The notes: generated by a model from the letters alone, not told the origin. DNA of 64,000 nt from Candidatus Liptonbacteria bacterium (GCA_023244895.1 JAHFLL010000001.1:178476-242475); one strand, 5' to 3'. Numbered from the stretch's first letter, positions 1 through 42,974 are shown. Program-made: numbers and translations.

Positions 1-1773
1 GGGAACGTGGGTATTTCCACCACCACCCCCTCCGGCAAGCTACATGTTGCCGGTGGCGGTGCGTATATGAGCAACCTGGATGGTTCATATCGTGTCCCGG
101 TCGCGAATACCGAGCTAGTGCCGAAGCAGTATGTAGACAGTGTTTTCCAGCCCATAGCCACGGATGCGCTCTGGACATTAACAGGGTCTGTTATTTATGC
201 ATCTTCCACATCCCGCCAGGTGGCAATAGGCAGTGCGAGCGCAAGTGCTTGGGCCAAGCTTGACGTCAGAGGCGGACAGATAGTTGCAGAACAGTCTGGC
301 GGGACTGGTTATGATAGTTTTGATGGTACGGGCGGCTCGGATGGTTCCAGGGGTTTGCGCGCATCCTGGACCTCTGGTTATGGCGCGAGTCTAGAGGCAT
401 GGGATGGAGGTGCTCCTAAATGGGGTATTTTCCGCTGGAACGCCACCACCTCTTATCCTGTTATGCAGGGACTTTACACTAGCAACAATGTTTACTTTAG
501 CGGGAATATGGGCATAGCTACAACCTCTGCCTCCAATACTCTAGATGTTCAGGGCACGGGCGGATTCACTGGTCAGCTCTACATCCCAGTCACTCCTTTA
601 TCTAGTTCCTCTGCGGCTAGTAAGCAGTATGTAGATACTACTTTTGCCCCTATCGGCACGGTTGGCTTACCGGCTGGCACTACTGGTCAAACTTTGCGCC
701 ACAATGGTTCTACTTGGGTAGCCAATAGCGTGATTTATAACAACGGTTCAACCATAGGGATAGGGACAACAAGTGGTTCTTCTATGTTGACGGTAGCGGG
801 TAGCTTGTCCGCAGTGGCGACCACTACTAGTGTATCTATCTATATGAGCGGAGCAGTAGGCGGTGTGGCGACCATCAGTCAGAATATGAATGGTAGCCCC
901 AACATAATGGGCATCACTACTTCTAATAATGGAGAGTTAATATTGAATGGTTCTGGCTCAACCGGCGTGGTCGCGATAGGCACCATGGCTACCACCTCCG
1001 CAAAACTTACTATTGGCGGCTCCCCAACTATTGCGATTGATGCGGGTGGAGGCAGAATACAAAACTTAGCGACTACTCCAGTTAACGGGAACGACGCCGC
1101 GACCAGGACCTATGTAGATGGCGTGGCTAGCAAGTGGAACTTGTCCAGCACGAACATATATAACAATAATGCGGGAAATATTGGCATAGGTAGCTCAACA
1201 GCGCCGTCGTATAAGTTGCATGTGTTCGGTAGTTTGGGTGCGTCTGGCTCCATAGTCGCCAACGGGGGAATAACTTTAGGCGCAGGTACGAATATCACCG
1301 GTGTCAATAAGATAACCGTGACTACCATTGACCCGGTCTATCGCATTGGAGGAGTAAACTACGCGACCTACGCCGGTTCTTTCGCGGGTGGAGTAAAGGA
1401 AGAGTACTCCGGCAAGGCTAAGCTCAAAGCTCAAATGTCAAAGAACAAAAAAATTGACATTGGAAATTCGGATTTGGACATTACCGGAACCGGTTATGAA
1501 TACGTCATTGACTTCAGTTCGGTTCCGGTCGGCTCCGACTTGTGGGTCTGGTACAAAGCAATTGACTTCTCTAGAGATAATATAGAAGCGGTAGCCACTC
1601 CCTACGGCCAGTCCGCAAGCATCTACTACGTGATAGAGGGCAAGAAGATAATATTCCGGGGAGACAAAGGTGCAGAATTCAGTTTCCGCTTAACCGGTAA
1701 GCGTCATGATTGGCGAGAGTGGCCCACCATGTCTAAGGACCAGGAAGAAAAGCCGAGCTTCATATTGGACTAA
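1..1773 (+). CDS. Gly-rich phage-tail-fibre-like surface protein, 5'-truncated by the window edge (frame is open to base 1)
   Basis: Repeated NIGIG(T/S)xxP...KL(D/H)V motifs and AxxK/RxYVD motifs typical of tail-fibre beta-helix repeats. C-terminal 120 aa (MSKNKKIDIGNSDLDITGT...VPVGSDLW) is paralogous to the C-terminus of the 8862-10169 protein. Confidence 0.7.
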   Translation, partial: GNVGISTTTPSGKLHVAGGGAYMSNLDGSYRVPVANTELVPKQYVDSVFQPIATDALWTLTGSVIYASSTSRQVAIGSASASAWAKLDVRGGQIVAEQSGGTGYDSFDGTGGSDGSRGLRASWTSGYGASLEAWDGGAPKWGIFRWNATTSYPVMQGLYTSNNVYFSGNMGIATTSASNTLDVQGTGGFTGQLYIPVTPLSSSSAASKQYVDTTFAPIGTVGLPAGTTGQTLRHNGSTWVANSVIYNNGSTIGIGTTSGSSMLTVAGSLSAVATTTSVSIYMSGAVGGVATISQNMNGSPNIMGITTSNNGELILNGSGSTGVVAIGTMATTSAKLTIGGSPTIAIDAGGGRIQNLATTPVNGNDAATRTYVDGVASKWNLSSTNIYNNNAGNIGIGSSTAPSYKLHVFGSLGASGSIVANGGITLGAGTNITGVNKITVTTIDPVYRIGGVNYATYAGSFAGGVKEEYSGKAKLKAQMSKNKKIDIGNSDLDITGTGYEYVIDFSSVPVGSDLWVWYKAIDFSRDNIEAVATPYGQSASIYYVIEGKKIIFRGDKGAEFSFRLTGKRHDWREWPTMSKDQEEKPSFILD

Positions 1774-2223
1774 GCGACCCGAATGACCCCAATTGCATCC
1801 GAATGACACTAATGGCGGAGAAGAGAATCGTAGAAAAGGAGTTGTCGTACGTGCTGACGGGTTTGATGTTTAGGGTACATAAAGAACTGGGCAGATATGC
1901 GAGAGAAAGGCAGTATGGGGATGCGCTGGAGAGAGAGTTTAGAACAGCTAAAATGAATTACGAGAGGGAAAAGGCAATTGAAGTCGCGGAGCGCAAGTCT
2001 AATCTTATAGATTTTGTCATAGAAGAAAGGGTCGCAATAGAATTAAAAGCTAAACCGTTTATAACCAAGGAAGATTATTATCAGATTCAGCGTTACCTGC
2101 AGTCAGCTAATCTGGAATTGGGTATGCTGGTCAACTTCTCTCAGGAATATTTAAAGCCTAAAAGAGTGTTGAATGCTAATCTCTATTCGGGTAATTCGGA
2201 TGAATTCGTGGATTAGGGTCGCT
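1773..2223. mobile_element. Small cassette bounded by 8-bp perfect terminal inverted repeats (AGCGACCC / GGGTCGCT) with subterminal CCGAATG/CATTCGG repeats, carrying a GxxExxY ORF
   Basis: TIRs at 1773-1780 and 2216-2223. Direct repeats of ccgaatgac at 1778-1806. Inverted attcggat copies at 2193-2208. ORF-less related copies at 3888-4019, 37660-37751 and 18425-18450. Confidence 0.55.
1803..2216 (+). CDS. GxxExxY family protein (PD-(D/E)XK nuclease superfamily 3-like)
   Basis: 137 aa. N-terminal LSYVLTGLMFRVHKELG...YGDALEREF and C-terminal IELKAK...QIQRYLQSANLELGMLVNF match the GxxExxY/PDDEXK_3 architecture. Both ORF ends lie within the element repeats. Confidence 0.6.
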   Translation: MTLMAEKRIVEKELSYVLTGLMFRVHKELGRYARERQYGDALEREFRTAKMNYEREKAIEVAERKSNLIDFVIEERVAIELKAKPFITKEDYYQIQRYLQSANLELGMLVNFSQEYLKPKRVLNANLYSGNSDEFVD

Positions 2224-2239
2224 ATAAATCTATGTAATT

Positions 2240-2248
2240 TGCTATAAT
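2240..2248 (+). promoter_or_regulatory. Extended -10 promoter element TGCTATAAT upstream of cupredoxin gene 1
   Basis: The tttgctataat motif recurs at 3086-3098 and 3146-3158 (gtaatttgctatac) upstream of the second cupredoxin gene. A-rich AAAGTCAAAAA repeats follow. Confidence 0.4.
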
Positions 2249-2313
2249 ATACAGGTAATATCAAAGAGTCGAAACAAAAAAATAAAAGTCAAAAACAAAA
2301 GTCAAAAACTAAT

Positions 2314-2892
2314 ATGGAAAATAAAAATAAAATAATAATCGCGGTTGTGGTCGTAGTAGTAGTGGCTATCGTTGGCTACTGGATTGCTACCAAGTCGGGT
2401 ACGAATACTGCCCAGAACGGTCCAGCGGGGGATGCTCCCGCCGCAGTAGAGACTCCGCAGGGCACCGCCGCCGCCCCAGGCGCGAGCGCGGTAACTGACG
2501 AGGGTAAGGTTGTGACTCAAAGCGGTCAGGTTGCGGACAACACCGCCATTCCTGGCTCTATGGCAGCTCCCCAGCAGTCCGCTCCAATAACTCAGTCTGA
2601 GGCCCCGGCTTCATCCGTAAAGCTCAGCGTGGGTAATTCGGTTTTCTCTCCCACGGACTTCTCGGTAAAGACTGGTTCGGCTACCACCCTGGTGTTAACC
2701 TCGGTGGATTCCATGACTCACGTCTTTAAGTTCCGCGATGCTTCCCTGCAGGCGGTAGCGGTAGGTATTGGCCCGGGCGAAACCCGCCTCATTACCTTCA
2801 ACGCTCCGACCAAGTCAGGAGAGTATGAGTTTTTCTGCGATGTTCCAGGCCACACTGCTCGCGGTGAGACAGGGAAGATGATAGTCAAGTAA
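2314..2892 (+). CDS. Membrane-anchored type-1 copper cupredoxin (plastocyanin/azurin-like)
   Basis: N-terminal poly-Val TM helix and Ala/Pro-rich linker. C-terminal domain has His (THVF), then FFCDVPGH...GKM providing the Cys/His/Met copper ligands. Confidence 0.75.
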   Translation: MENKNKIIIAVVVVVVVAIVGYWIATKSGTNTAQNGPAGDAPAAVETPQGTAAAPGASAVTDEGKVVTQSGQVADNTAIPGSMAAPQQSAPITQSEAPASSVKLSVGNSVFSPTDFSVKTGSATTLVLTSVDSMTHVFKFRDASLQAVAVGIGPGETRLITFNAPTKSGEYEFFCDVPGHTARGETGKMIVK

Positions 2893-2985
2893 TTTATCCT
2901 GATTGGATAAATTACTTGCAAGCACCAAATCCCAAGTATCAAGCACCAAGCAATGGAGGGACCGCTTGTGATCAAAAACAAAAAA

Positions 2986-3004
2986 CGGGCGCAGCCCGTT
3001 TTTT
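2986..3004 (+). terminator. Rho-independent terminator (cgggc-gca-gcccg stem-loop plus T6)
   Basis: GC stem followed by tttttt, 90 bp after the cupredoxin stop. Confidence 0.6.
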
Positions 3005-3162
3005 GGTATATTGTTTTCTGTTTTGGATTCTAGATTCGTTCGGAATTTGCCTGCCCGCCGGGTTGGCAGGCGGGGTGCTTGTAATTTGCTATACCCATCT
3101 TTAGGTTCCTAATTTGTTTGGAATTTGGTATTTGATGCTTGTAATTTGCTATACTTATAGCC

Positions 3163-3879
3163 ATGGAAGGCATGGGTCGGGCGATTGTGAGCGGTCTCTT
3201 TGTGGTTCTTGTTATGATGTCCATCGTGGTTTTGGGTTTAAGCTTTTTATCGCCCTTAGAAAATAAAAAAACAACACCTAAATATAGCGCCACTAAAGTG
3301 GGCACCTCAACCCCGGTCCAAGAGCCGGAGAAAATTTCTTTCAATCCCTTAAGCATCTTCGGTTTCGGCAACAACAAGCCGGAAGAAACTCCGCCGCCAG
3401 CTGTTGCTCCCGTAGAGACTCCGCTTCAGCAGAACATCCCTCCTTCTCCTCCCTCGCTCTCCCTAACCGCCATAGGGACGTCCCCGGTTGTGGATGGCAA
3501 GGTGGTGCAGTTGAGCTACGAGCCAGTGTCTCTTGCGGTTGATCCAGGCTCAAACCAAGCTCCTTTTTCTTCGCGCCCCATAACGCCGGGGGAGTATCTT
3601 CCCAATAGCCGCATTCTCAAATTCAGCGACCAGGGAGTAGATCCGATTAACTTTAGCGTGCAGACTGGATCCGTAATCAATCTGGTTATTCGTTCTGAGG
3701 GCGAGTCGTCTCACGTCTTTCGCTTTAAAGATAAGGGTCTTAAGGCCGTCGCGGTGGGAGTTGGTCCGGAGGAGTCCAGGGAGATAAGTTTTAACGCGCC
3801 TGGTTCTGGATCATATGAGTTCTTTTGCGACATACCCGGGCACAAGACTAGGGAGATAGGGACGATGATTGTCAATTGA
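3163..3879 (+). CDS. Membrane-anchored type-1 copper cupredoxin, tandem paralog
   Basis: Same C-terminal domain as the first copy (SSHVFRFKDKGLKAVAVGVGP...YEFFCDIPGHKTREIGTM). N-terminal TM and Pro-rich linker. Confidence 0.75.
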   Translation: MEGMGRAIVSGLFVVLVMMSIVVLGLSFLSPLENKKTTPKYSATKVGTSTPVQEPEKISFNPLSIFGFGNNKPEETPPPAVAPVETPLQQNIPPSPPSLSLTAIGTSPVVDGKVVQLSYEPVSLAVDPGSNQAPFSSRPITPGEYLPNSRILKFSDQGVDPINFSVQTGSVINLVIRSEGESSHVFRFKDKGLKAVAVGVGPEESREISFNAPGSGSYEFFCDIPGHKTREIGTMIVN

Positions 3880-3887
3880 TTAATAAT

Positions 3888-4019
3888 AGCGACACGAATG
3901 CTACGAATTGCACACGAATTATCCGAAAATGATTTGGGGCATTCGGATGCCATTCGGATCGTTCGGGTTGCTTCCTTTTATTCGGGTCATTCGGATGTAA
4001 TTAGGGTCGTTCGGGTTGC
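3888..4019. repeat. ORF-less MITE-like derivative(s) of the 1773-2223 element
   Basis: agcgacacgaatg at the left end and cattcggatgtaattagggtcgtt at the right end. Multiple attcggat/cgttcgggttgc copies. Confidence 0.5.
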
Positions 4020-4041
4020 TATATATTAGAATTTATTCCAA

Positions 4042-5793
4042 ATGGATTTTTTTAGAAGATTAAAAACCAACTTGAAGATAAGTCGTCATGGCTGGCGCCA
4101 CCTCTTGCCCCATCCGGTTTTTTTGATAGCTTTCCTCATTCTAGCCGTAGTCGTGATCTGGCAGGTAGGTGTTATAACCGAGTTCATATATACCGGGCTC
4201 CAGGTTAAGCCTGCGAGAACCACGCCCACTGAGCCATTAGGGGGCGGCAAGGGGCAATCCGCAACGGAACAACCTCCCGAAGAGCCGAAAACTTTTTGGC
4301 AAAAGATCGGTATTTTTTCTGCCCCAAAAGAAAGTAGCGTGCCAACCGTTTCGGAGGACAGTCCCGGTCCGAACAGATTGCAGTTTTCATTCACCGAACT
4401 TTTTTCCGGTAAGGGTTGGAAAAACGAGTCCCAGTCTAATGTTTATCAGGACTTTTTAACCACCTCCATTTCCGCTCCGCCTGCGTATAGTTGGCAGAAA
4501 ATATCGGTTGATCCGCCCAGCGACGGTTCCGAAATAGTGGCCGCGAAAAGTAATGGCAAAAGAGCCGTGCTTCTAACTTCCGCGGGCAATATTTATTCTT
4601 TTGACTTTGCCGAGAAACTCTCCGCGCAATTAGGCCTTATTACTCCGCCCGCGGGAACAAATCGGGGATTCTTGGATTTTGACGCGGAAGCTGGTAAATG
4701 GGTGGCTGTTCTTTTGGGCAATAATGCCGAATATTTCGCTATTTTGGAAGAAGGGGGTGGGCAATTTAAAAAGTTGGCTGAATTCACTCGTCCGCTTCCG
4801 GGCGGAACGGGCGTAGCCGATCCGGGTATTGCTTGTCGGAACGGAAACTGCCTTTGGCTTTATGGATCCGAATTTTTGACTTTTTCTGATAACTCTCGCC
4901 CTAACCCCAAAAAGGAAGATGTTCTATCAAATTGGTTTAAAGACAAGAGCGTGAAGTCCGTGTCTGTGGCTAAAGCCTTGGGCGGTTGGCTTGTTTCCAA
5001 GACTCATCCGGGCGAGGAGGTTAAGTATGAAACAGATATATATTTATGGGATGGAGAGCTATCGCTTGCGGGCGAGAAGGTTTTCTCTTCCAACTATCCT
5101 GGTTTAGTCAGGTTCGGATATGATCCAAACACAAAGAAACTTCTTGGCATATATGTGGCTTATATCGGGCAAGCGTTTGAATTCAACCTACCCGACAAAT
5201 TTACCTTAGTAAAACCCAAAAACTATTCCAGATTTTTCAACGCTCGCATCTTGGGCGGGGGAGCAGAGGGGAGTATTGAAAGCTTCCCGGATATATTTGG
5301 GCAAGATGGCGCTTGGTGGATAGGCTCAACGCCCGAATCTCCCTCTCCCCGTTTTGTGAAAATATCACCGAGCGGGGGAGCGATTAGTCTGACGCAAGAA
5401 CTTGCCCTGGGCGCCCGCCAGTTATTTTTACTGCCTGGATTTGAGGCGCGAGTAATGTACGCCATCTTAGTTAAAAACGGCATAGTGGAAACGTATCGCC
5501 TAAACGATCGTGGCTACGAACAGAAAGATAAATATATCTGGGAGTCCTCTCGCATTAATAGCGGCGCGTTACCTATAAAGTTCGGACGCATAACCAATGC
5601 GGTTGGCGGGGGAGATATCAGATATTATTTATCTAATAACGGGGGAATCTCTTGGCTGGAGGCCAAGTCAAACGAGTTTGTAAAATTTTCATCGGACACC
5701 AGCGACTTCCGCTGGAAGGCGGAGCTCTCACCCTCTCCCGACCAATATTCCTCGCCCTGGCTCAACATGATTGGGGTAGAGTACTACCAGTAG
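4042..5793 (+). CDS. Hypothetical membrane-anchored protein (N-terminal TM; BNR-like SxxGGxSW motif near the C-terminus)
   Basis: 583-aa ORF. TM helix at residues 25-45. No confident family assignment. Confidence 0.5.
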   Translation: MDFFRRLKTNLKISRHGWRHLLPHPVFLIAFLILAVVVIWQVGVITEFIYTGLQVKPARTTPTEPLGGGKGQSATEQPPEEPKTFWQKIGIFSAPKESSVPTVSEDSPGPNRLQFSFTELFSGKGWKNESQSNVYQDFLTTSISAPPAYSWQKISVDPPSDGSEIVAAKSNGKRAVLLTSAGNIYSFDFAEKLSAQLGLITPPAGTNRGFLDFDAEAGKWVAVLLGNNAEYFAILEEGGGQFKKLAEFTRPLPGGTGVADPGIACRNGNCLWLYGSEFLTFSDNSRPNPKKEDVLSNWFKDKSVKSVSVAKALGGWLVSKTHPGEEVKYETDIYLWDGELSLAGEKVFSSNYPGLVRFGYDPNTKKLLGIYVAYIGQAFEFNLPDKFTLVKPKNYSRFFNARILGGGAEGSIESFPDIFGQDGAWWIGSTPESPSPRFVKISPSGGAISLTQELALGARQLFLLPGFEARVMYAILVKNGIVETYRLNDRGYEQKDKYIWESSRINSGALPIKFGRITNAVGGGDIRYYLSNNGGISWLEAKSNEFVKFSSDTSDFRWKAELSPSPDQYSSPWLNMIGVEYYQ

Positions 5794-6045
5794 TTGCGTA
5801 ACAACTACTGGAAATCCCAATGTCCAATTCCAAATGAGGAATGTTGGCAAGAGTGGGCCATTTGGCACTGGATATTTGGACTTTGGATTTCGCCTGTTGT
5901 TCGTCATTTGATATTTGAGCTTTGACATTGCCCTAGCTGACTTGTGCACATCTTTCCAGCCATTGATTTGTTATAATTATACAACTGGATTACGTCAAAC
6001 AAACGGGTCGGTTTTGGGTGAGGGCAATATGAATAATTTATTAAG

Positions 6046-8106
6046 ATGACTAAAAAAATAATATTCTCGGTTTTCATCGTCGGGTCGGTTCTCGGTCTTG
6101 CTCTGATCGTTTCCGCCGCCACCCGAGATATTGTTTTTACGCCCCAAGCCGCGGATCCGTATACCTGCAATGCCTCTACGACCGGGGCAATCTATTTTAA
6201 AAATGACAACAAGATTTATTCTTGCAATGGTTCCGCCTGGGCGCAGGTAGGTGGTGCGGCAGGGGGCGGTTCCGTCTCTACCTCTTCTGCTCTCTCCGCT
6301 TATTATTTTCCGTATTGGTCTAACGCAACGGGCGGTCTTATGGGGACGTCTACTATTTTCTACTCGTCCTCCACGGGCAATATCGGTATTGGCGGGGTAG
6401 TCACTCCTCAGAATAAATTGGATGTAACTTTAGGTACCAACAGCTTCGTCACCTTTGGCAACACGGTTAATACTAATGGAAGTTTCAGCGGCATTCATTT
6501 TGGCTACAAAGAAGACGGCAATGCCAACTATCGCAAAGGGGCATTGGTTTTTGAAACTCTTGGAGACAGCTCTGCTAGGGGTAAAGTGCATATTCTAAAC
6601 GATGGGGGTGCGGATGCTTCTTCGGCGACTCTCGCAGATGCTCGTCTCACGGTTGACTACAACGGTAACGTGGGTATCGGCACCGTCTATCCCTCCTCAA
6701 CTTTACACGTGGTTGGTTCGGCTAAATTTTCCGGTACCGTAGGGGTGGCTACTCCAGTTTTGGCCGGTGACGCCGCAACTAGATCTTATGTGGACACGGT
6801 CTTAGGCGGAGGCACGCTTGTAATCGAAAATCCTACCGGTGGCGACCCGCGCACGGTGTGGTATGGAGACGCCGGTACTATTACCGCCGGTATAAGATTT
6901 AGTACTGGCCGAGCTGGCACTATAACTAAGCTACGCGTCTTGGGGGGCCCCGTAACTTATACTATGAAGCTTTGGGACTATAACACCCAGACAGTCTTGG
7001 CCAGTGGTACCGTTACTGGAATAAACAACACTACCTGGGCAGAAGTCGCAGTGAACGTGTCTACCACTGTAAGCGGGCAGTACGTTGTGACTTATACGGA
7101 ATCAGGCTATGGCATGTATTATGGCGACGCCTCTTGTCCTAATAACACCTTAAGGGGAAGCATCACTGTTATTGCTTGTGGATTCGTAGCGGCCGCCGGC
7201 TTCCCGACTACATGGAATTACAGCCTCTCCGCGGCAGATGTTACGTTTTCCTATAGCGCCGTTACTGCCAGTCAGTGGAACACAACCTCCACCTCCATCT
7301 ACTACAACGTCGGCAACGTTGGCATTGGAACGGCGAGTCCGGGCTCAACTCTGGATGTTTTAGGCACTGGCAATTTCTCCGGGACGGTTACGGTTGCTAC
7401 TCCCACCGTATCTAGTCATGCCGCCACTATGGGGTATGTTAATACTGCGGTATCGTCCACGATTCCAACAGGTATGATAGCTTTCTTTGCTTCTGCCTGT
7501 CCGGCCAATTGGACGGAATACACCGCGCTAAGGGGCAGGGTGATAGTAGGTACACCAAGCGGAGGCACCAATGCCGGCACGGTGGGGACGGCGCTTACTA
7601 ATCTTGCGACCAGAACCATAACTGACGTACCGGCTCATACTCACGCAGTGGATCCGCCCGCTACCGCATCCGGCAACCAGAGTGCAGACCATACCCACAC
7701 CTTTACTACCGGTGGTGTGAGTGTTGGTCATACTCATTCTGTAAACCCCCCCAGTACTTCCGTCAGTATCACAGATCCAGGTCATACGCACACAGTTCCG
7801 AACAGCTACGGTTATGGAGGTAGTAGCGCTTCGGTTAATAATGCTGGTGGGCAATATGATTTAATAAAGTTTTATGGTAGCTCTGTTGCTTCTGCAACTA
7901 CGGGCATAACTGCTTCTGTTGATATTGCAGCTGTTACCTCGGGCGCGCAGAGCGTGGACCACACCCACTCTGGTACTACCGCTGGGATGAGCGTTAGCCA
8001 CACCCACACAACGGATATAGGATCATTTACTTCCGGTTCGGCAGGCTCCGCTTCGGTGGATGTGACTATGCCCTACATTCAGCTTACTGCCTGCCAGAAG
8101 AGCTAG
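6046..8106 (+). CDS. Secreted/anchored tail-fibre-like protein with a phage tail-collar domain and a His-Thr-His repeat region
   Basis: Signal/TM at the N-terminus. NIGIGGV...KLDV and ATRSYVDTV fibre motifs. IPTGMIAFFASACPANWTEYTALRGRVIVGT...PAHTHAV matches the tail-collar (Collar) domain consensus. Six HTH-type motifs follow (HTHA, HTHT, GHTHS, GHTHT, DHTHS, SHTHT). Confidence 0.7.
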   Translation: MTKKIIFSVFIVGSVLGLALIVSAATRDIVFTPQAADPYTCNASTTGAIYFKNDNKIYSCNGSAWAQVGGAAGGGSVSTSSALSAYYFPYWSNATGGLMGTSTIFYSSSTGNIGIGGVVTPQNKLDVTLGTNSFVTFGNTVNTNGSFSGIHFGYKEDGNANYRKGALVFETLGDSSARGKVHILNDGGADASSATLADARLTVDYNGNVGIGTVYPSSTLHVVGSAKFSGTVGVATPVLAGDAATRSYVDTVLGGGTLVIENPTGGDPRTVWYGDAGTITAGIRFSTGRAGTITKLRVLGGPVTYTMKLWDYNTQTVLASGTVTGINNTTWAEVAVNVSTTVSGQYVVTYTESGYGMYYGDASCPNNTLRGSITVIACGFVAAAGFPTTWNYSLSAADVTFSYSAVTASQWNTTSTSIYYNVGNVGIGTASPGSTLDVLGTGNFSGTVTVATPTVSSHAATMGYVNTAVSSTIPTGMIAFFASACPANWTEYTALRGRVIVGTPSGGTNAGTVGTALTNLATRTITDVPAHTHAVDPPATASGNQSADHTHTFTTGGVSVGHTHSVNPPSTSVSITDPGHTHTVPNSYGYGGSSASVNNAGGQYDLIKFYGSSVASATTGITASVDIAAVTSGAQSVDHTHSGTTAGMSVSHTHTTDIGSFTSGSAGSASVDVTMPYIQLTACQKS

Positions 8107-8158
8107 TGCGCGTTTTGCTCTGACGGTTTTTATCACAAATCAATATGAGCGCAAATAT

Positions 8159-8854
8159 ATGCGAATAGGTTTTAGTGTAAAAAGATTAGGTACTAAGATT
8201 ACCGCTCGCAAGCGCATCATTAAGATAGGGCTTGCGTTTTTGGTTGTCGCGCTTCTTATTTCCGGCGCGGTATACTCTTATATCTTCGCGCGGAAAATGA
8301 TAAGTGATGTCTATTATCGTTTGGGACAGATATCTCAGGGACTTGGAAATAACCCAGACTCACTGTCTTTGATAGAAAAATCATACGAATATAATAGTTC
8401 TGATCCCAGAGTTGTGTCTGCTATGGTGATTGGTCATATGAACATAGGGGACTACTCTTCGGCGAAGGATTTATTAGAGAATAAACTGAAAAATTTAGAC
8501 GAAGAAGGCTATCTGTATCTAACCGCGCTTCTTAAGCACAGGGAAAGAAACTATCAAGAAGCGGAGATTATCTTAAGAGGTTTAGTAGACAAGTATCCCG
8601 CTAAAGTTTTCTATTACGACGCACTGGGCTCCATGTATCTGGATATAAAAGATTATGAATCCGCGAAATCAATTTTTGAGAGAGGCATTGCCATCAATCC
8701 CAACGTTTCTATTTTACACGATGGCTTAGGTGTGGCGTATAACGCGCTTGGCAAGGCAGACCTTGCGCGGGATGAATACGCGAAAGCTTTGGAACTTGAC
8801 CCTACTAATACCGGTGCCCGCCGCAATCTAGAATTATTAGACGCAAGAAGATAA
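8159..8854 (+). CDS. TPR-repeat protein with N-terminal TM anchor
   Basis: Tetratricopeptide-like repeats (YYDALGSMYLDIKDYESAKSIFERGIAINP...AYNALGKADLARDEYAKALELDP). Confidence 0.65.
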   Translation: MRIGFSVKRLGTKITARKRIIKIGLAFLVVALLISGAVYSYIFARKMISDVYYRLGQISQGLGNNPDSLSLIEKSYEYNSSDPRVVSAMVIGHMNIGDYSSAKDLLENKLKNLDEEGYLYLTALLKHRERNYQEAEIILRGLVDKYPAKVFYYDALGSMYLDIKDYESAKSIFERGIAINPNVSILHDGLGVAYNALGKADLARDEYAKALELDPTNTGARRNLELLDARR

Positions 8855-8861
8855 GTGCTCT

Positions 8862-10169
8862 ATGAAGAAAGCAGTAAAATCGATTAAGCGCAAAGACCTG
8901 AATTACCGCAGAATTTTCTTGGCGTCCTTGATTGCGCTCGCCGTAGTTATCATCTCGGTTGCGATACTCGCGAGTTACTACGCGAGGGCATTTATCGGTC
9001 CCGGCCAGCCCAGCGGGTCCGGAGCGGGGGCTATCGGAGTGGACTCCGCGGATAATATCAGTGTTGGTTCTTCTACCACGCGCGCCAATACTAAAATGCT
9101 CATTATCTCGTCTAGCACGGGCAGTTCCGCTTGGGCTTTGGGGGTGTATCAGCCGGATGGAACTACGCCCATCTTTCTCGTGAGAGATGACAAAAAAGTG
9201 GCGATTGGAACAAGTATCGGTTCCGCCGCGCTTACGGTGGCGGGAGACATCTCCGCTACAGGCAACATTTCCGGAACTTATACCGGAGCGGTCAGTTCTA
9301 CTAATATCCGAGCGGGAAGTTTCGGGACGGGCGTAGGAGGAGGCAACTTCAGTTTCCCGGCCAGCTTGGCAGTCAGCACGTCTTCCCCAGCCTATAACTT
9401 GGACGTATGGGGTACGGGTCGCTTTATTAACAACCTTGCCGTGGGAACGCCGATTGGCAATGGAGACGCCACGCCGAAATCTTATGTGGATGGGCTGGTC
9501 TACTGGTATGCGGGCAATGGATATCTGTATCCAGCTTCCACGACCATGAATATCGCCATCGGAACATCAACAACCCCATCTTATAAATTAGACGTGTCCG
9601 GCTCGGGGCGTTTTACAGGCAGTTTGATCGCGAGCGGGGGCATAAATCTAAACAATCAAAATATTACCGGGGTAAACAAACTTACCGTGACCACTATTGA
9701 TCCGATTTATTTGATTGATGGGCGCAAGTATGCCACTTATGTCTCGGACACAATTGGCTTAAAAATGGAGGTGTACGGAAAGGCTAAACTGCTGCGCAGT
9801 AGTGACAAAACTCAAATGTCAAAGAACAAAAAAATTGGGATTGGTAATTTAGATTTAGACATTACCGGAACCGACCACCAATATATAATCGATTTTAAAT
9901 CAGTCCCGGTTGGCTCCGACTTGTGGTTGTTTTGGCAGACCATTAAAGAAGGGAGAGATATGCAGGACATTGTAGTTTCTCTTGCGCCCGAAGGTGCTCC
10001 GGCGCGGGTTTGGTACGAGTTTCTTCCCGCCGATAGGCAATTAGTATTTCACTCCGACCGAGAAGTGACTATTTCTTATCATCTTGTAGCCCCGCGCCAC
10101 GACTCGGATAGCTGGCGGAATATTTACGAATCTGATGAACCGGGCGTACCGTTATTGATAAAAAGATAA
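8862..10169 (+). CDS. Type-II membrane-anchored tail-fibre-like protein, paralog of the 1-1773 protein
   Basis: N-terminal TM (FLASLIALAVVIISVAILA). NIAIGTSTTPSYKLDV and PKSYVDGL motifs. C-terminal MSKNKKIGIGNLDLDITGT...VPVGSDLW block shared with ORF1. Confidence 0.7.
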   Translation: MKKAVKSIKRKDLNYRRIFLASLIALAVVIISVAILASYYARAFIGPGQPSGSGAGAIGVDSADNISVGSSTTRANTKMLIISSSTGSSAWALGVYQPDGTTPIFLVRDDKKVAIGTSIGSAALTVAGDISATGNISGTYTGAVSSTNIRAGSFGTGVGGGNFSFPASLAVSTSSPAYNLDVWGTGRFINNLAVGTPIGNGDATPKSYVDGLVYWYAGNGYLYPASTTMNIAIGTSTTPSYKLDVSGSGRFTGSLIASGGINLNNQNITGVNKLTVTTIDPIYLIDGRKYATYVSDTIGLKMEVYGKAKLLRSSDKTQMSKNKKIGIGNLDLDITGTDHQYIIDFKSVPVGSDLWLFWQTIKEGRDMQDIVVSLAPEGAPARVWYEFLPADRQLVFHSDREVTISYHLVAPRHDSDSWRNIYESDEPGVPLLIKR

Positions 10170-10214
10170 GACTTAACTGTTGGGTGTCTAAAAATGCGAA
10201 GACCCCGATGCTTG

Positions 10215-10548
10215 TTTCGGAGTCTGGGCTATTTCGCCTGTTTAAAGAGCGTGGGGACGGGCTGGCGAAAGACCCGCCCCCACCAAACCCAGGAGGGACC
10301 CGGGATCACGTTTAGACGAAGGGCAAGGTGGTAATACGTACCTCCGGCAAGTTGCTGGTTGCTTGTCGGAAATATACCCCCGCGCCCCTCGTGCTGGATA
10401 GAGGATAGTACGAGAGTCCCAACGTGTCAAAAAGCAAAAACCGGACCATGGACGTTGTTCTATCCACAAGAAGAAGGCTCTTAGTGTAGATAGGTCGGCA
10501 AGTCCAAATCCGGTTTTGCTTGGCAAATATATGCTAGGAAGTTCTTCT
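10215..10548 (+). ncRNA. rnpB: Candidate RNase P RNA (bacterial type A, reduced)
   Basis: GGAGGGACCCGGGAUC resembles CR-I GGAAAGUCCGGGCUC. AAGGGCAAGGUGGUAAUACGUACC resembles the P5-P7 segment AGGGCAGGGUGCCAGGUAACGCC. UAGAUAGGUCGGCAAGUCCAAAUCCGGUUUUGC resembles CR-V UAGAUGAAUGACUGUCCACGACAGAACCCGGCUUA. A P4 pairing CCGGG/UCCGG is possible. Confidence 0.5.
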
Positions 10549-11071
10549 GGTCAAGCGTCCCAGGGGGTAGGAGGAGGTTCTGCCTGGGCTTCTGGAGGGG
10601 GGTTAGTAAATGTATTAGTCCACTAAAAAGCATTGACCAAACGGAGATTAGAGCTATTATCACCTCCGGCACATTGTTTACGCGCGGATATGGTGTTCGC
10701 GCGTTTGTGGCGGAGGATGCGTTGAATAAAACCCGCTCTGATTCTGGGACCTCACGGTCCAAGAGATCTTACGGTAAGACTCGGTCCCCCAAAGCCAAGG
10801 GAATGGTTTCTTTTCTGATCCCTCTACGCTGTCCCGGCGGCTGCGGCTCTTTCGTTAGGTGGGATGGCCGGAAGCCATACTGCATGGACAGGACCTGCAA
10901 GGGTAACGAGATCCTGACGCGCATGTCGCGTAAAGGGGGGATGTTTGAGGACATCTGCGCCGCCGCACGAGCGTTAGAGGCGTATCGCAGAAAGAGATCT
11001 TAGTGGGTGGAGGAGAAAGTCGTACGGGTACCCCAAGGTGCCCGTTACGTTTTTATGATAATCTTCTATAT

Positions 11072-13618: not shown

Positions 13619-16360
13619 ATGAAAAAAACATTGATTGGATTATTGGTAGGATTGGCCTTAGTTTCTGGGCTTATCCCGTCCGGCGCAGTTCTAGCAGTGG
13701 AAGGAACGGCTTCGGTAGATAATAATTCTGCAATCAGTAAGATCACGGAGTTGATGAAACAGATCAGCGAGCTGCAGGAAAAGGTTACGAAACTAAAATC
13801 GGAGCAGGGAGTCTCTTCTCCCGGTTTCGGAGTCGGAGTGGCGGTAAAAGAGCAGTGGTCGGAAGATTCCGATTATAAGTTTGAGAAAAACCTTTCTTTT
13901 GGTGTTAGAAACGATAAGGACGTAGAGAGACTCCAGAATTTCCTCTTGGAAAAGGGTTATTATAGTGGACCCGTAACAGGCAACTATCTTTCCCTAACTC
14001 TAAAAGCGGTAAAGAAATTTCAGAAGGACAATGGTGTGGAAGATACCGGATATCTTGGTCCTAAGACTAGAGCAGTCATAAAGGACAAGGTGGTTTCTTG
14101 TACGGTTGGTCAAGATTGCGGTACGACCATCATTAAACCGGCGGAACATGTGCTCAAAATAACCACAGATTCTAGTTTAACAGCTTCGGTTGGCAAAGAC
14201 TTCTCCGCAATTTTCAAAGTTAATGGCTGGAATCCTTCCCATGGCGATTTAAACGTGGAAGGATCGGGGGTGATTCCGGGACTGTCTTGGTCTAAACCCA
14301 CAATCCAATGCATAATGGCTCCCTGCGGCGACGCGCCGATGAAAAATAGCCAGACTATCTATTTGAACGGGACGCCCACCCAGGCGGGAGTGTATCAGGT
14401 GACAGTGACCGCATCTTCTTGGTCCAGTGGTTGCAACTCCACGAGCGGTATCTGTCCGGAAATGGCTAAGCAGACCGGTTATGGTAAGGCGGAATTCACC
14501 ATAGTGGTAAATAACTCTTCTGGGACCAATTTACCCCCGGTAATAACCGGCCTAAAGGGTCCAACTTCCTTGAAGGTAGGCGAAGAGGGTCAGTGGGAAA
14601 TTAAGGCTCACGATCCGGATAGCAGTATCTTAAGCTACAGTGTAGTTTGGGGAGATGAAGTTGAAAATTCAGCCCAGAGCGCCGCTAAAACTGCCACGGA
14701 CTCTACTAGTCAAAAAGCCTCTTTTAGTCATGTCTATTCCCGTGCCGGGGAATATAAAGCTGTTTTTACGGTAACGGACGAGACGGGTCTTAAGGCTGCC
14801 GCTTCTCTCACTACGGTGGTTGGCGGCGGAGTAGTTCAGGCCGGAACTCTCATGATAGACCCATCTTCCGCTAATTTTAACGTAGGCGACGGCGGAAAAT
14901 TTGTTGCCAGTTTCACACCCATGGGCAACTGCGATGGTATCCATTGCCCCAAGCCAGCCTCTAGACTGGTTGAGGCTTCTTGGTCTGTTTCCGTTCCCGG
15001 GATAGTTACCCTCCGTCCGAATCCTTGCCCCCTCAATCAGAACTGCGAACCTTATGTTTATGTTTCTGCCTCCGTTCCCGGGAAAGTTTATCTGATTGCC
15101 AGTTATACCGAATCAGGCAATACCTACCTAACCAAGGTGCCCATAGTAGTCCAAGCGATACCGCCTACCATAGAGGCTTCTCTCAAGATAGATCCTTCTT
15201 CTGCTAGTCTTAAGGTGGGGGAGGGCAAGCAATTTGTCGCCTGGTTTGACCCTGCCGCGAACTGCGATGGGAAAAAGTGCCCCAAGCTTCCTGTTCGGCA
15301 GGTAGAGGCCTCCTGGTCTGTGTCGGCTCCAGGCGTGGCGGTAATAAAGCCAAATGTCTGTCCCAATCTACCGAATACGGGCGCATGCCTCCCCCAGGTA
15401 ACAGTTGAGGGCGTGGCTGCTGGTAGGGTGAATCTTATTGCTACCTACGAAAATGCTGGTAGGGTATATACTGCTAATGCGGTCATATCGGTCTCGTCTG
15501 TGCCAACCCCACGCGGGACGCTTCTGATTGAGCCATCTTCTCTCAGCTTGCAAAAGGGCCAATCAGGAACTTTAAGTTCGTTCTTTGTGCCCTATGTTCC
15601 ACCTTGCTCTAGCAATACTGAATCACCTTGTCTTGCGGCAGTAAAATCTCCAGTAGATGTTCTTTGGTCTAATAGCACTCCCGGCAGGATAAGCCTATCT
15701 TGTTTCTATGCCACTACGAATATGAGCCAGGATAAGCTGTGGCAGCAATGCTCTGGTAGTCAGGTTAGCGTCGGTGCTTTAGCAGGTGGTGGATCGCAGG
15801 TGCTGGCCAGCTACAAGGATGCAAACGGACAAGCCTATACAGTTGCTACGCCTATAACAGTTACAGATCCAAATCCGGTTATGGGCAAGTTGGTGATAGT
15901 TCCAAGCTCTTTGTCTCTAGAAGTTGGGAGCTCTAAGATAATGTCGCTATTTATGCAAGATCCAATGCCACCCTGTCCGGCTCCTAGGGTTTGCACACAG
16001 TCTTTACCCGCCCCCCGCCCCGTAAATGGCACTTGGTCCAGCTCTAATAATTCAATTGTAAAATTATCTTGTCCTGCGATGCCACCCTGTCCCGCCGGAA
16101 TGGCTTGCATTCAGGTTATGCCGCCTTGCACGGGTACCACTATGAATGCTACCGGAGCGAGTCAAGGCACGGCAAAGGTTAGCGCGAACTATGTGGATGG
16201 AACTGGCCAATATTACCTTGCGGAATCTTTAGTCACGGTGTCTGGGGTTGGAACGAGCTCGTCCACTGCGGCTAGCTTTAGCGCTAGTCAACAAACAGCC
16301 AATGTCTTGCAGTATCTTTACGAAACACTTTTAGGGATGCAGTCTGGTTTATCACGTTAA
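13619..16360 (+). CDS. Secreted multidomain protein: peptidoglycan-binding domain, PKD domain, about 5 Cys-containing Big_2-like Ig repeats
   Basis: Signal peptide. PG_binding_1-like YYSGPVTGNYLSLTLKAVKKFQKDNGVEDTGYLGPKT. PKD-like WGDEV...FSHVYSRAGEYKAVFTVTDETG. Repeated about 110-aa units with ASWSVS.PG and NCDG.(H/K)CPK motifs. Confidence 0.7.
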   Translation: MKKTLIGLLVGLALVSGLIPSGAVLAVEGTASVDNNSAISKITELMKQISELQEKVTKLKSEQGVSSPGFGVGVAVKEQWSEDSDYKFEKNLSFGVRNDKDVERLQNFLLEKGYYSGPVTGNYLSLTLKAVKKFQKDNGVEDTGYLGPKTRAVIKDKVVSCTVGQDCGTTIIKPAEHVLKITTDSSLTASVGKDFSAIFKVNGWNPSHGDLNVEGSGVIPGLSWSKPTIQCIMAPCGDAPMKNSQTIYLNGTPTQAGVYQVTVTASSWSSGCNSTSGICPEMAKQTGYGKAEFTIVVNNSSGTNLPPVITGLKGPTSLKVGEEGQWEIKAHDPDSSILSYSVVWGDEVENSAQSAAKTATDSTSQKASFSHVYSRAGEYKAVFTVTDETGLKAAASLTTVVGGGVVQAGTLMIDPSSANFNVGDGGKFVASFTPMGNCDGIHCPKPASRLVEASWSVSVPGIVTLRPNPCPLNQNCEPYVYVSASVPGKVYLIASYTESGNTYLTKVPIVVQAIPPTIEASLKIDPSSASLKVGEGKQFVAWFDPAANCDGKKCPKLPVRQVEASWSVSAPGVAVIKPNVCPNLPNTGACLPQVTVEGVAAGRVNLIATYENAGRVYTANAVISVSSVPTPRGTLLIEPSSLSLQKGQSGTLSSFFVPYVPPCSSNTESPCLAAVKSPVDVLWSNSTPGRISLSCFYATTNMSQDKLWQQCSGSQVSVGALAGGGSQVLASYKDANGQAYTVATPITVTDPNPVMGKLVIVPSSLSLEVGSSKIMSLFMQDPMPPCPAPRVCTQSLPAPRPVNGTWSSSNNSIVKLSCPAMPPCPAGMACIQVMPPCTGTTMNATGASQGTAKVSANYVDGTGQYYLAESLVTVSGVGTSSSTAASFSASQQTANVLQYLYETLLGMQSGLSR

Positions 16361-42244: not shown

Positions 42245-42973
42245 TTAGATGCTTTCCGTGCTAACCAGTTGCGCTCTGACCACGTTGCGTTTGGATGCGC
42301 CGCCGATAGGGTAGCAGGTAATCAAAGTTACTTCCGGTGCCGCCGTGGGAGTAGCGAGCAGGGCATTAGTGTCGGTAGGCGTAAGAACCTGCTTGGAAAA
42401 AACTCGAAAGACCATTTTTTTGTTTTGGGCGGTAACGTAAACTTCATCGCCTTCGCTTAGCTTCGGCAGTAGCGAAAAAATATAAGCATAATCTCCGCGA
42501 TACCATGTGGCTTTAGAACTGTGCCCCAGAATTACCGCCCTACCATTTTGCCCGGGTTCCACCGAGCCGGGATACAGCCCCACACCCTCTTCTAAACTAG
42601 CCAAGACGCTAACCTTAGAGCTGTCTTTGGGTGTCACGATGGGAGTGTTTATTTGTATTTTAGGTATGGACAGATAGACTCCCTCGCCCGAAGAAGTATT
42701 GGGCGTATTTCTGGGACTCGCGGAAGTCGTGCCGGCGGTAGTGGTGTTGGGCGCCGATGCCCCGTCGGAAGAAGAGTCAGAAACATGTTGCCCCTCAACC
42801 TCTAAAATATTTCCTTCCCTGAGGTCCGCGCTCGCGAGGTGGGTTCCCAAAAATAAATCGTATCTCAAAATGCGCATATAAGCTCCTCCGTTTAAAAGCA
42901 GGTAGACGAAAATACTGGCTCCAAAGAAAAAGATCAGGAAAATTGTTATTCTCTCTAACCAAACAGTGCTCAT
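42245..42973 (-). CDS. Sortase-family transpeptidase
   Basis: N-terminal TM. ILGHS (His), TLITCYP (TLxTC catalytic Cys), downstream Arg. Confidence 0.8.
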   Translation of the reverse strand: MSTVWLERITIFLIFFFGASIFVYLLLNGGAYMRILRYDLFLGTHLASADLREGNILEVEGQHVSDSSSDGASAPNTTTAGTTSASPRNTPNTSSGEGVYLSIPKIQINTPIVTPKDSSKVSVLASLEEGVGLYPGSVEPGQNGRAVILGHSSKATWYRGDYAYIFSLLPKLSEGDEVYVTAQNKKMVFRVFSKQVLTPTDTNALLATPTAAPEVTLITCYPIGGASKRNVVRAQLVSTESI

Positions 42974-42974
42974 T

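What the first reader, a model, noticed from the sequence alone, without database searches (positions are those of the whole stretch)
1..10169. Cluster of three paralogous phage-tail-fibre-like, membrane-anchored surface proteins
ORFs 1-1773, 6046-8106 and 8862-10169 share Gly-rich beta-helix repeat motifs (NIGIGTxxP...KLDV; D-A-A-T-R-x-Y-V-D) characteristic of phage tail fibres. Each has an N-terminal signal anchor or TM rather than a virion context. No capsid, terminase or baseplate genes are nearby. Two of them share a unique C-terminal block (MSKNKKI.IGN.DLDITGT...VPVGSDLW). In a small-genome episymbiont these are plausible host-attachment fibres. The cluster is interleaved with two copper cupredoxins, a TPR protein and a mobile cassette, suggesting an accessory surface-protein locus.
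Basis: partly seen in the sequence, partly recalled or inferred. Interest (0 to 1): 0.7.

Follow-up and report, generated by a model that had tools for sequence, protein, structure and literature searches.

The report
CPR surface fibres with cupredoxin partners
A tiny-genome Patescibacteria (CPR) bacterium gives about 25 kb of its chromosome to exported, phage-tail-fibre-like surface fibres; those ending in an undescribed C-terminal domain are regularly encoded beside a membrane-anchored cupredoxin and a second unknown membrane protein, so this looks like an uncharacterised cell-surface (probably attachment) apparatus, not a prophage.

Summary
The three ORFs are real, but they are not three equivalent paralogues.

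- **ORF 1-1773** is the last 590 aa of a 2582-aa secreted protein cut by the window edge.
- **ORF 8862-10169** shares with it a roughly 170-180-aa C-terminal ("CT") domain. This domain has no Pfam, NCBIfam, PHROG or PDB sequence relative. It has 1225 cluster representatives, is always at the extreme C-terminus, and is essentially absent from viral contigs.
- **ORF 6046-8106** shares only the short GNVGIGT..P..KL.V.G fibre module. It ends in a different tip: a collar plus HxH-repeat domain related to the phage T4 gp37 long-tail-fibre tip.
- **Locus extent.** The fibre locus runs at least 15 kb left of the window, with a 2145-aa fibre, a pilin-like protein and a third cupredoxin. It lies between housekeeping genes with no phage structural genes.
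- **Conserved neighbours.** The "interleaved" cupredoxins and the 583-aa protein are conserved partners. In independent metagenome loci, 37 of 73 CT-domain genes have a cupredoxin gene just downstream, and 17 of 34 also have a 583-like gene.

Best reading: a chromosomal, mosaic surface-fibre system analogous to Bdellovibrio MAT fibres. Function is inferred, not shown.

The parts
1..1773 (+). C-terminal 590 aa of a 2582-aa exported fibre protein (P0300). The gene starts about 6 kb left of the window.
   Evidence: The full protein carries 14 GNVGIGT-type motifs.
1264..1770 (+). CPR-specific C-terminal (CT) domain of the 2582-aa fibre
   Evidence: Aligns with ORF435 and with the 88-protein family. 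The profile finds 1225 cluster representatives.
1432..1491 (+). Loop insertion QMSKNKKIDIGNSDLDITGT inside the CT domain
   Evidence: Absent from most homologues. It lies within a 121-nt stretch that is 81% identical to the copy in ORF435.
1803..2216 (+). PDDEXK_3 small gene lying between the fibre gene and its cupredoxin partner. Probably a secondary insertion.
   Evidence: Pfam PF13366, E 3e-22. In other loci the cupredoxin directly follows the fibre gene. A PDDEXK_3 homologue also sits directly after a CT gene in L073.
2314..2892 (+). Membrane-anchored cupredoxin 1: N-terminal hydrophobic segment, Pro/Ala-rich linker, and candidate Cu ligands H136, C175, H180, M189
   Evidence: Pfam Cupredoxin_1, E 4e-11. 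Ligand positions. Conserved partner of CT fibres.
3163..3879 (+). Membrane-anchored cupredoxin 2 with candidate Cu ligands H184, C222, H227, M235
4042..5793 (+). 583-aa membrane-anchored protein of unknown fold; third conserved member of the cassette
   Evidence: Homologues found in 26 ORFs of independent loci, mostly directly after the cupredoxin. No Pfam or PDB sequence match.
6046..8106 (+). 686-aa mosaic fibre: signal peptide, fibre modules, DUF4082 insert, gp37-like tip
6805..7260 (+). DUF4082 insert domain of ORF686 (residues 254-405)
   Evidence: PF13313, E 1e-8, 35.7 bits against a cut-off of 28.4, when scanned on its own.
7438..8103 (+). Collar plus six-HxH-motif C-terminal tip domain of ORF686 (HxH at residues 531, 549, 562, 580, 639, 652)
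   Evidence: 227 homologues. The family profile matches 2XGF (T4 gp37) at E 2e-6 and 8KEC at E 6e-7. 17 viral loci carry it. HxH positions.
8159..8854 (+). TPR protein with an N-terminal membrane anchor. Weakly associated: only 2 homologues in other loci.
8862..10169 (+). 435-aa short fibre: N-terminal hydrophobic helix 13-43, degenerate fibre modules, CT domain
9627..10166 (+). CT domain of ORF435. The globular part, residues about 280-435, is mostly predicted at pLDDT above 90 as a beta-sandwich with helices.

Best explanation
The finding is the right-hand third of a chromosomal locus of about 25 kb in a Patescibacteria (CPR) genome whose largest assembled contig is 0.84 Mb. The locus encodes a set of exported, tail-fibre-like surface fibres of mosaic build.

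**Shown**
- All the fibres use the same repeated stalk module of about 50 aa. That module is also found in S74-chaperone tail fibres and in Bdellovibrio MAT fibres.
- They differ in their C-terminal modules. The 2582-aa and 435-aa proteins end in an undescribed CT domain, found so far almost only in Patescibacteria. The 686-aa protein ends in a phage gp37-type collar plus HxH tip. The 2145-aa protein upstream has neither.
- CT-domain fibres belong to a conserved cassette: fibre, then a membrane-anchored cupredoxin, then a 583-like membrane protein. Window 1-5793 is one such cassette, with a duplicated cupredoxin and an inserted PDDEXK_3 gene.

**Inferred**
- The fibres are Sec-exported and probably trimeric, and project from the cell.
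- The conserved CT domain sits exactly where relatives carry the S74 chaperone. It probably serves fibre assembly and/or docking to the membrane-anchored cupredoxin and 583 partners.
- Variable stalks and tips such as the gp37-like needle would bind the surface of a partner cell, as in Bdellovibrio MAT fibres.
For: - **Paralogy and repeated module:**
- **Stalk relatives:** Bd3182 MAT fibre 8OJN; S74-bearing homologues, including P0089, which is 62% identical to ORF686 over its best local alignment (40% of ORF686; matching segments span residues 1-443) but ends in Peptidase_S74; BFVD tail-fibre hits.
- **Tip of ORF686:** gp37 and 8KEC, and a phage tail-module context.
- **CT domain:** 88 homologues; nearly all that carry a name are Patescibacteria (one is labelled Woesearchaeota), and none has a Pfam domain. 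1225 cluster representatives, always C-terminal, in proteins of 175-3782 aa. One dubious viral contig. Confident globular model.
- **Cassette conservation:** three other genomes. 37 of 73 CT genes have a cupredoxin ORF within 1.5 kb downstream on the same strand, 21 of them within 66 nt, against 11 cupredoxin ORFs in 502,573 bp of background. 24 of 26 partners match PF13473. 17 of 34 CT genes have both a cupredoxin and a 583-like gene within 4 kb. L042 is syntenic.
- **Export:** every protein in the locus has an N-terminal hydrophobic segment.
- **Chromosomal context:** housekeeping genes on both sides, no phage genes seen.
Against: - There is no experimental or expression evidence, and no cultured relative.
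- Trimeric fibre architecture was not modelled. The monomer models are poor for the stalks (mean pLDDT 73 and 53).
- The ORF686 model gave no significant PDB match.
- About half of CT genes, mostly the more distant family members, lack a nearby cupredoxin. The partnership therefore holds for a subfamily only.
- ORF435 itself has no cupredoxin directly downstream.
- Most partners keep a complete type-1 copper ligand set. A redox role, rather than a structural or docking role, is therefore not excluded.
- Which end of the fibre is cell-proximal is unknown.
Confidence: 0.6

Rival explanations
1. Degraded prophage, tailocin or extracellular contractile-injection tail-fibre module resident in the chromosome.
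For: The stalk motif and the ORF686 tip are shared with real phage receptor-binding proteins. IVP/bAvd and PDDEXK_3 small genes are scattered through the locus.
Against: No capsid, terminase, portal, sheath, tube, baseplate or tape-measure genes were seen from about -25 kb to +54 kb. None of the fibres hits any PHROG. Every fibre has a Sec-type N-terminus, which virion proteins lack. The CT domain is essentially absent from 2.9 million viral contigs. The cassette recurs next to housekeeping genes in other CPR genomes.
Confidence: 0.03
2. General envelope or S-layer-like structural proteins, or non-specific adhesins for particles and biofilm, with no role in recognising a host cell.
For: The locus is embedded in a larger region of exported surface proteins (PKD lipoprotein, 921-aa Cys-rich protein, glycosyltransferase, a PG-binding/PKD protein at 13619-16360). 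The CT domain is highly conserved, unlike a typical receptor-binding tip.
Against: The mosaic swapping of tips (S74, CT, gp37-like) and the huge length variation (175-3782 aa) are typical of recognition fibres such as phage receptor-binding proteins and Bdellovibrio MATs (PMC10769870). The gp37-type needle is a dedicated receptor-binding device in phages.
Confidence: 0.2
3. The fibres are accessory or tip components of a type IV pilus rather than free-standing fibres.
For: The locus starts with a 269-aa protein that has a canonical prepilin-like N-terminus (KG/FTLVELAL) and also carries a fibre motif near its C-terminus. A homologue occupies the same position in syntenic L042. One cupredoxin partner hit the archaeal Pilin_N model. 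Type IV pili are the established attachment and motility organelle in Saccharibacteria (PMC12206443).
Against: The large fibres have ordinary signal-peptide-like N-termini, not prepilin motifs. No pilus assembly genes (PilB/C/M/N/O) were seen in the 80 kb examined. Pfam did not call N_methyl on p269.
Confidence: 0.1
4. The cassette is primarily a redox device: the cupredoxins are extracellular electron carriers and the fibres scaffold or position them.
For: Most partners keep the H...C-x4-H...M type-1 copper ligand set. The partner profile matches blue-copper and CuA domains in the PDB, E 2e-10 to 1e-9. CPR cupredoxins have been read as electron donors to NirK (PMC5581439, PMC12931201).
Against: Several partners have lost the Cys and/or the second His (L039, L059, L062, L075) yet keep the adjacency. 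No NirK or other redox partner was seen in the locus. The tight, often overlapping gene junction with a fibre gene points to a stoichiometric protein partner.
Confidence: 0.07

Closest known systems
Bdellovibrio bacteriovorus MAT (mosaic adhesive trimer) fibres (Caulton et al. 2024, PMC10769870)
   Same: Chromosomal, Sec-exported, tail-fibre-like proteins of a bacterium that lives on other bacteria. They have a shared stalk with swappable C-terminal tips and are encoded by several genes per genome. There is a direct sequence match of the stalk module to Bd3182 (8OJN).
   Different: No S74 domain is present here. The conserved roughly 130-aa N-terminal MAT domain was not identified. The CT domain, and the cupredoxin and 583 partner genes, are not among the MAT features I retrieved from the paper by term search; I did not read it in full. 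The host organism is a monoderm CPR bacterium.
Phage T4 gp37 long-tail-fibre tip (PDB 2XGF) and related long tail fibres (8KEC)
   Same: The C-terminal domain of ORF686 has the collar-like segment followed by repeated HxH motifs, six here. The family profile matches at E 2e-6 and 6e-7.
   Different: The protein is fused to a cellular, signal-peptide-bearing stalk with a DUF4082 insert. There is no virion context and no gp38- or gp57-like chaperone gene. Metal binding has not been tested.
Peptidase_S74 (intramolecular chaperone) tail fibres and endosialidase-type spikes
   Same: The same GNVGIGT stalk module immediately precedes the C-terminal module. The CT domain occupies the position that S74 holds in relatives such as P0089.
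   Different: The CT domain is unrelated to S74 by profile comparison (probability 0.1%) and lacks the SDxxxK motif. Self-cleavage is unknown.
Phage tail-fibre / tail-fibre-assembly (Tfa, gp38) gene pairs (own knowledge)
   Same: A small gene immediately downstream of the fibre gene, often overlapping its stop codon, is conserved with the fibre's C-terminal module.
   Different: The downstream gene here is a membrane-anchored cupredoxin, not a Tfa- or gp38-type chaperone. The analogy rests on gene order only.
CPR single-domain cupredoxins read as NirK electron donors (PMC5581439, PMC12931201)
   Same: The same Pfam family and the same membrane-anchored, single-domain architecture.
   Different: Here they are linked to fibre genes rather than to nirK, and some members have lost copper ligands.

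Membership tests
Phage tail fibre (virion receptor-binding protein) | Fibre-type repeated stalk and/or a recognised tail-fibre tip domain | tested here: met
   8OJN stalk match. BFVD tail-fibre matches. ORF686 tip family against 2XGF and 8KEC at E about 1e-6.
Phage tail fibre (virion receptor-binding protein) | Encoded within a virion or tail structural module (tape measure, baseplate, capsid, terminase nearby) | tested here: not met
   No such genes from about -25 kb to +54 kb. No PHROG hit.
Phage tail fibre (virion receptor-binding protein) | No secretion signal, because the protein is assembled in the cytoplasm | tested here: not met
   Every fibre has an N-terminal signal peptide or anchor.
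Bdellovibrio MAT fibres | Signal peptide plus a trimeric fibre stalk related to phage fibres | tested here: inconclusive
   Signal peptides and the stalk sequence match are present. The trimeric state was not modelled.
Bdellovibrio MAT fibres | Conserved beta-rich domain of about 130 aa directly after the signal peptide (PMC10769870) | not tested
   No MAT N-terminal sequence was available for comparison. Only residues 40-70 of ORF686 fold confidently.
Bdellovibrio MAT fibres | C-terminal S74 chaperone/protease (13 of 21 MATs) or an alternative tip | tested here: not met
   No PF13884 in any of the window proteins. CT against an S74 profile gave probability 0.1%. Alternative tips are present.
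Peptidase_S74 intramolecular-chaperone fibres | S74 domain with an SDxxxK catalytic motif | tested here: not met
   Relatives such as P0089 do have it.
T4 gp37-type tip | Collar domain followed by HxH-repeat needle | tested here: met
   Profile match covers the collar-like segment and the HxH repeats. Six HxH motifs.
T4 gp37-type tip | Iron ions coordinated by the HxH histidines in a trimer | not testable with these tools
   Needs a multimer structure or metal analysis.
Type-1 (blue) copper cupredoxins | Cupredoxin fold with His, Cys, His, Met ligands | tested here: met
   PF13473 and PF00127 hits. H136/C175/H180/M189 and H184/C222/H227/M235. Ligands are lost in some orthologous partners.
Diversity-generating retroelement target locus | Reverse transcriptase plus a template/variable repeat pair differing at adenines | tested here: not met
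   Avd-like IVP genes are present. No reverse transcriptase was seen in the annotated neighbourhood, and repeat mismatches are not adenine-specific.
Type IV pilins | Class III signal peptide (G/FTLxE) followed by a hydrophobic helix | tested here: inconclusive
   The upstream 269-aa protein has KG/FTLVELAL, but Pfam gave no N_methyl call. The large fibres lack the motif.

The most novel reading that the evidence does not exclude
A three-component surface apparatus, so far seen almost only in Patescibacteria, has not been described. A tail-fibre-like protein ending in the new CT domain would be assembled on, or docked to, a membrane-anchored blue-copper cupredoxin and a 583-like membrane protein. 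Copper or redox chemistry would then be an integral part of how ultrasmall episymbionts build or control their attachment fibres, or exchange electrons with the partner cell.
Probability: 0.2. Interest if true: 0.8.

Novelty: new variant of a known kind. Interest (0 to 1): 0.6.

Why it matters
How Patescibacteria outside the Saccharibacteria recognise and hold on to their hosts is largely unknown. The perspective article I consulted names type IV pili and predicted adhesins, and nothing like this cassette (PMC11665869).

This locus offers concrete candidates:
- a domain family with 1225 cluster representatives and no model in any of the libraries I searched;
- a conserved three-gene cassette;
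- evidence that these cells reuse phage receptor-binding parts on Sec-exported fibres, as Bdellovibrio does.

The locus takes up about 3% of the 0.84-Mb contig, which argues that it is important to the organism. The unexpected and reproducible link between fibres and cupredoxins also questions the default annotation of CPR cupredoxins as respiratory electron carriers.

Tried and rejected
- **Family scans.** Pfam, PHROGs and NCBIfam scans of the three full proteins gave nothing. Only isolated sub-domains gave hits: DUF4082 and gp37 through a family profile.
- **PDB sequence searches.** The CT domain, alone or as a profile, gave only chance-level hits.
- **S74 chaperone hypothesis for the CT domain.** Rejected by hhalign.
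- **DGR hypothesis, prompted by the Avd-like IVP genes.** Rejected: no reverse transcriptase seen, and repeat mismatches are not adenine-specific.
- **ORF686 structure.** The AF2 model was too poor (pLDDT 53) for a meaningful fold search, and Foldseek against the PDB found nothing at E 0.001 or better.
- **Genome-contig scan with the 492-aa fragment.** It did not return the source genome, so the organism could not be named. It only showed that the stalk module is widespread: CPR, DPANN bins, Bdellovibrionales, Acidobacteriota and others.
- **Rfam on the 830-bp gap after ORF435.** Nothing.
- **Two alignments were too diverse for pattern scans**.
- **Literature searches.** No description of this cassette was found.


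Full report
**1. What is at the coordinates**

Three + strand ORFs lie at 1(7)-1773, 6046-8106 (686 aa) and 8862-10169 (435 aa). Between them are:
- a PDDEXK_3 gene (1803-2216);
- two Cupredoxin_1 genes (2314-2892 and 3163-3879);
- a 583-aa ORF with no family match (4042-5793);
- a TPR gene (8159-8854).

The first ORF is open to base 1. Near-identical public contigs (8 mismatches in 12,216 bases) show it is the end of a much longer gene. On the 840,672-bp contig that also carries the window's exact proteins, the product is 2582 aa (P0300). It begins MNLRKRTISISVISLVACFAFSSVAFG. In one metagenome assembly a single-base frameshift splits it into 492 + 2066 aa.

**2. How the three proteins are related**

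ORF1 and ORF435 align over their C-terminal 350 residues: 41% identity, E 6e-59.

ORF686 aligns with either of them only over segments of about 50 residues, the module GNVGIGT..P...L.V.G......V..P.....AAT..YVD, at E 3e-8 to 2e-5.

The module occurs 14 times in the 2582-aa protein and 4 times in ORF686. It occurs twice in degenerate form in ORF435. It is absent from the 583-aa and 913-aa neighbours.

"Three paralogues" is accurate only for two of them. The third shares a stalk module that is very widespread.

**3. The stalk is tail-fibre-like**

- None of the three proteins hits Pfam, PHROGs or NCBIfam as a whole.
- Residues 196-248 of ORF686 match PDB 8OJN (E 8e-4). This is the Bd3182 mosaic adhesive trimer fibre of Bdellovibrio (PMC10769870).
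- Many database relatives of the ORF686 stalk end in Peptidase_S74. The closest, P0089, is 62% identical to ORF686 over its best local alignment (40% of ORF686), with matching segments spanning residues 1-443. It ends in S74.
- The AF2 model of ORF435 (mean pLDDT 73) gives 11 BFVD hits at E below 1e-3.
- Trimer or beta-helix architecture could not be tested.

**4. Two different C-terminal modules**

*(a) The CT domain of ORF1 and ORF435*

- It spans about 170-180 aa. The core is NI.GVNKLTV.TIDP.Y.I.G.KYATY ... IDF....GSDLWLF ... WY ... SYRL.APR.D..WP.
- It has 88 word-indexed homologues. Nearly all that carry a name are Patescibacteria, and one is labelled Woesearchaeota. None has a Pfam domain.
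- An exhaustive profile search finds 1225 cluster representatives, 1008 of them at E 1e-30 or better. In all 150 listed hits but two the domain reaches the last 25 residues of the protein. The proteins range from 175 to 3782 aa.
- It folds confidently as a beta-sandwich with helices; residues about 335-415 have pLDDT above 90.
- It has no PDB sequence relative.
- It is unrelated to S74.
- It occurs on one of 2.9 million IMG/VR contigs. That 10-kb fragment holds only two giant fibre genes and is probably misfiled CPR DNA.
The rest (QMSKNKKI.IGN.DLDITGT) is a loop insertion that most homologues lack. It is predicted at pLDDT below 50.
- The insertion lies in a 121-nt stretch that is 81% identical between the two genes. 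The domains themselves are only about 41% identical in protein.

*(b) The C-terminal 220 residues of ORF686*

- They form a different family of 227 homologues, mostly short proteins from Myxococcota, Spirochaetia and CPR.
- The family profile matches the T4 gp37 tip 2XGF (E 2e-6) and long tail fibre 8KEC (E 6e-7). The match covers a collar-like segment and the HxH repeats.
- ORF686 has six HxH motifs.
- The same domain occurs on 17 viral contigs. In L119 it ends a 657-aa protein two genes downstream of a tape-measure gene.
- Residues 254-405 of ORF686 are a DUF4082 insert.

ORF686 is thus a chimera of a cellular exported stalk and a phage-type receptor-binding tip.

**5. The locus is larger and is not a prophage**

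Going left from the window the order is:
- an IVP gene;
- a 2145-aa fibre with an N-terminal anchor and many stalk modules but no CT domain;
- a 181-aa membrane protein;
- a third cupredoxin;
- a 269-aa protein with a prepilin-like N-terminus (KG/FTLVELAL) and a stalk motif;
- an Avd-like IVP gene;
- further exported proteins: PKD lipoprotein, a 921-aa Cys-rich protein and a glycosyltransferase;
- GreA and thymidylate kinase.

Going right come SpoU methylase, DUF192, GAPDH, pentose-phosphate and glycolytic enzymes, ribosomal protein L25, tRNA synthetases and, further on, a sortase cluster.

No capsid, terminase, portal, tail-tube, baseplate or tape-measure gene was seen over about 80 kb.

From the pilin-like gene to the end of ORF435, the fibre locus spans about 25.5 kb. 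That is about 3% of the 840,672-bp contig.

**6. The cupredoxins and the 583-aa protein are conserved partners**

This is the main new point.

- In three other CPR genomes, the CT-domain gene lies beside small Cupredoxin_1 genes.
- I then fetched 80 independent metagenome loci chosen only by the CT domain. I scanned their ORFs with profiles built here.
- Of 73 CT genes with at least 700 nt of downstream sequence, 37 have a cupredoxin ORF opening within 1.5 kb on the same strand. In 21 of these it opens within 66 nt of the stop codon.
- The same loci hold only 11 cupredoxin ORFs in 502,573 bp lying more than 3 kb from a CT gene.
- Pfam confirms 24 of 26 of these partners as PF13473.
- Loci chosen by the stalk module alone rarely have a cupredoxin: 2 of 25, and one of those two also has a CT gene.
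- Homologues of the 583-aa protein occur in 26 ORFs of other loci. Usually the order is fibre, cupredoxin, 583-like; sometimes it is fibre, 583-like, cupredoxin.
- Of 34 CT genes with at least 3 kb downstream, 22 have a cupredoxin and 17 have both partners within 4 kb.
- CT genes without partners are mostly the more distant family members.
- L042 reproduces the whole order: pilin-like, cupredoxin, 181-like, CT fibre, cupredoxin, 583-like.

Window 1-5793 is therefore one canonical cassette, with a duplicated cupredoxin and a PDDEXK_3 gene inserted after the fibre gene.

The window's cupredoxins keep a full H/C/H/M ligand set, as do most partners. Several orthologous partners have lost the Cys and/or the second His.

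The 583 family has no Pfam or PDB sequence relative.

**7. Mechanism**

*Shown:*
- mosaic fibre genes with a shared stalk and exchangeable C-terminal modules;
- N-terminal export signals on every protein of the locus;
- a conserved fibre-cupredoxin-583 gene order;
- a chromosomal, non-phage context.

*Inferred:*
- The fibres are secreted and probably trimeric, like their phage and Bdellovibrio relatives.
- The CT domain starts a few dozen residues after the last stalk motif, the position the S74 domain holds in relatives.
- It is far better conserved than the stalks. It also co-occurs with two membrane-anchored proteins that have long Pro-rich linkers.
- It is therefore more likely an assembly and/or docking module than a variable receptor-binding tip.
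- Specific recognition would come from the variable stalk inserts (such as DUF4082) and from tips such as the gp37-like needle.

Which end of a CT fibre faces the cell is not known. A redox role for the copper site cannot be excluded.

Host attachment is the most plausible biological role, given the analogy to MAT fibres and the episymbiotic lifestyle of cultivated Patescibacteria (PMC11665869). It has not been demonstrated.

**8. Comparison with what is known, and novelty**

The kind of system is known: tail-fibre-like adhesive fibres encoded in a cellular chromosome, as in Bdellovibrio MATs.

What I could not find described in the literature I could search:
- the CT domain;
- its partnership with membrane-anchored cupredoxins and the 583 family;
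- the presence of such mosaic fibres in Paceibacteria-type CPR.

Published readings of CPR cupredoxins treat them as electron donors to NirK (PMC5581439, PMC12931201).

I rate this a new variant of a known kind, with moderate to high interest. The function still rests on inference.

Noticed in passing
window 10425-10548 (within the gene-free gap 10170-11071): A conserved extended hairpin of about 95 nt. It is 87% identical over 108 nt to the same position after the ORF435 homologue in L037 (904-1011), although the two proteins' CT domains are only 65% identical. The MFE z-score is about -5 on either strand and in L037, with base changes in the stems that the L037 fold accommodates. There is no Rfam match at E 1 or better. 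It may be an unannotated small RNA or a regulatory or terminator element.
   Followed up: partly
L003 3690-3704 (about 4.5 kb left of the window): In one metagenome assembly the 2582-aa fibre gene is split into 492 + 2066 aa by a one-base frameshift, while the 840-kb contig has it intact. This could be an assembly error, a strain variant or on/off variation.
   Followed up: partly
window 1803-2216; L117 295-621 and 9491-9880; L073 1089-1463: Small PDDEXK_3 and 23S_rRNA_IVP/bAvd genes sit directly after giant fibre genes. One is flanked by A-rich direct repeats (L003 1539-1727 and 2107-2176), with an inverted copy at window 5861-5937. They look like small selfish insertions. No DGR signature was found.
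   Followed up: partly
window 1432-1491 and 9813-9872: The same variable loop of the CT domain carries unrelated low-complexity insertions in other homologues (for example NPKSETNSNVQNPK... and IRNSKLEIG...). The window's insertion weakly resembles the A-rich intergenic repeats. This loop may be a hot spot for small repeat insertions.
   Followed up: partly
L117 629-1438 (about 15 kb left of the window): A 269-aa protein with a prepilin-type N-terminus (KG/FTLVELAL) carries a fibre stalk motif and a Cys-flanked C-terminal segment (CWRITV...C). It is conserved at the head of the syntenic locus L042.
   Followed up: partly
L008 2639-9172; protein P0041: CT-domain fibre genes also occur on contigs binned as DPANN archaea (Micrarchaeia, Woesearchaeota). 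This could be transfer between the two groups of ultrasmall episymbionts, or mis-binning.
   Followed up: no
window 42245-49709, minus strand: A second surface-protein cluster: sortase, a CAP-domain protein, a 1057-aa protein and two further proteins with no family match.
   Followed up: no
L030 (IMGVR_UViG_3300001866_000229): A contig filed as viral consists only of two giant fibre genes (1290 and 1405 aa, the second with a CT domain) and no phage genes. It is probably CPR chromosomal DNA misclassified because of its tail-fibre-like sequences.
   Followed up: partly
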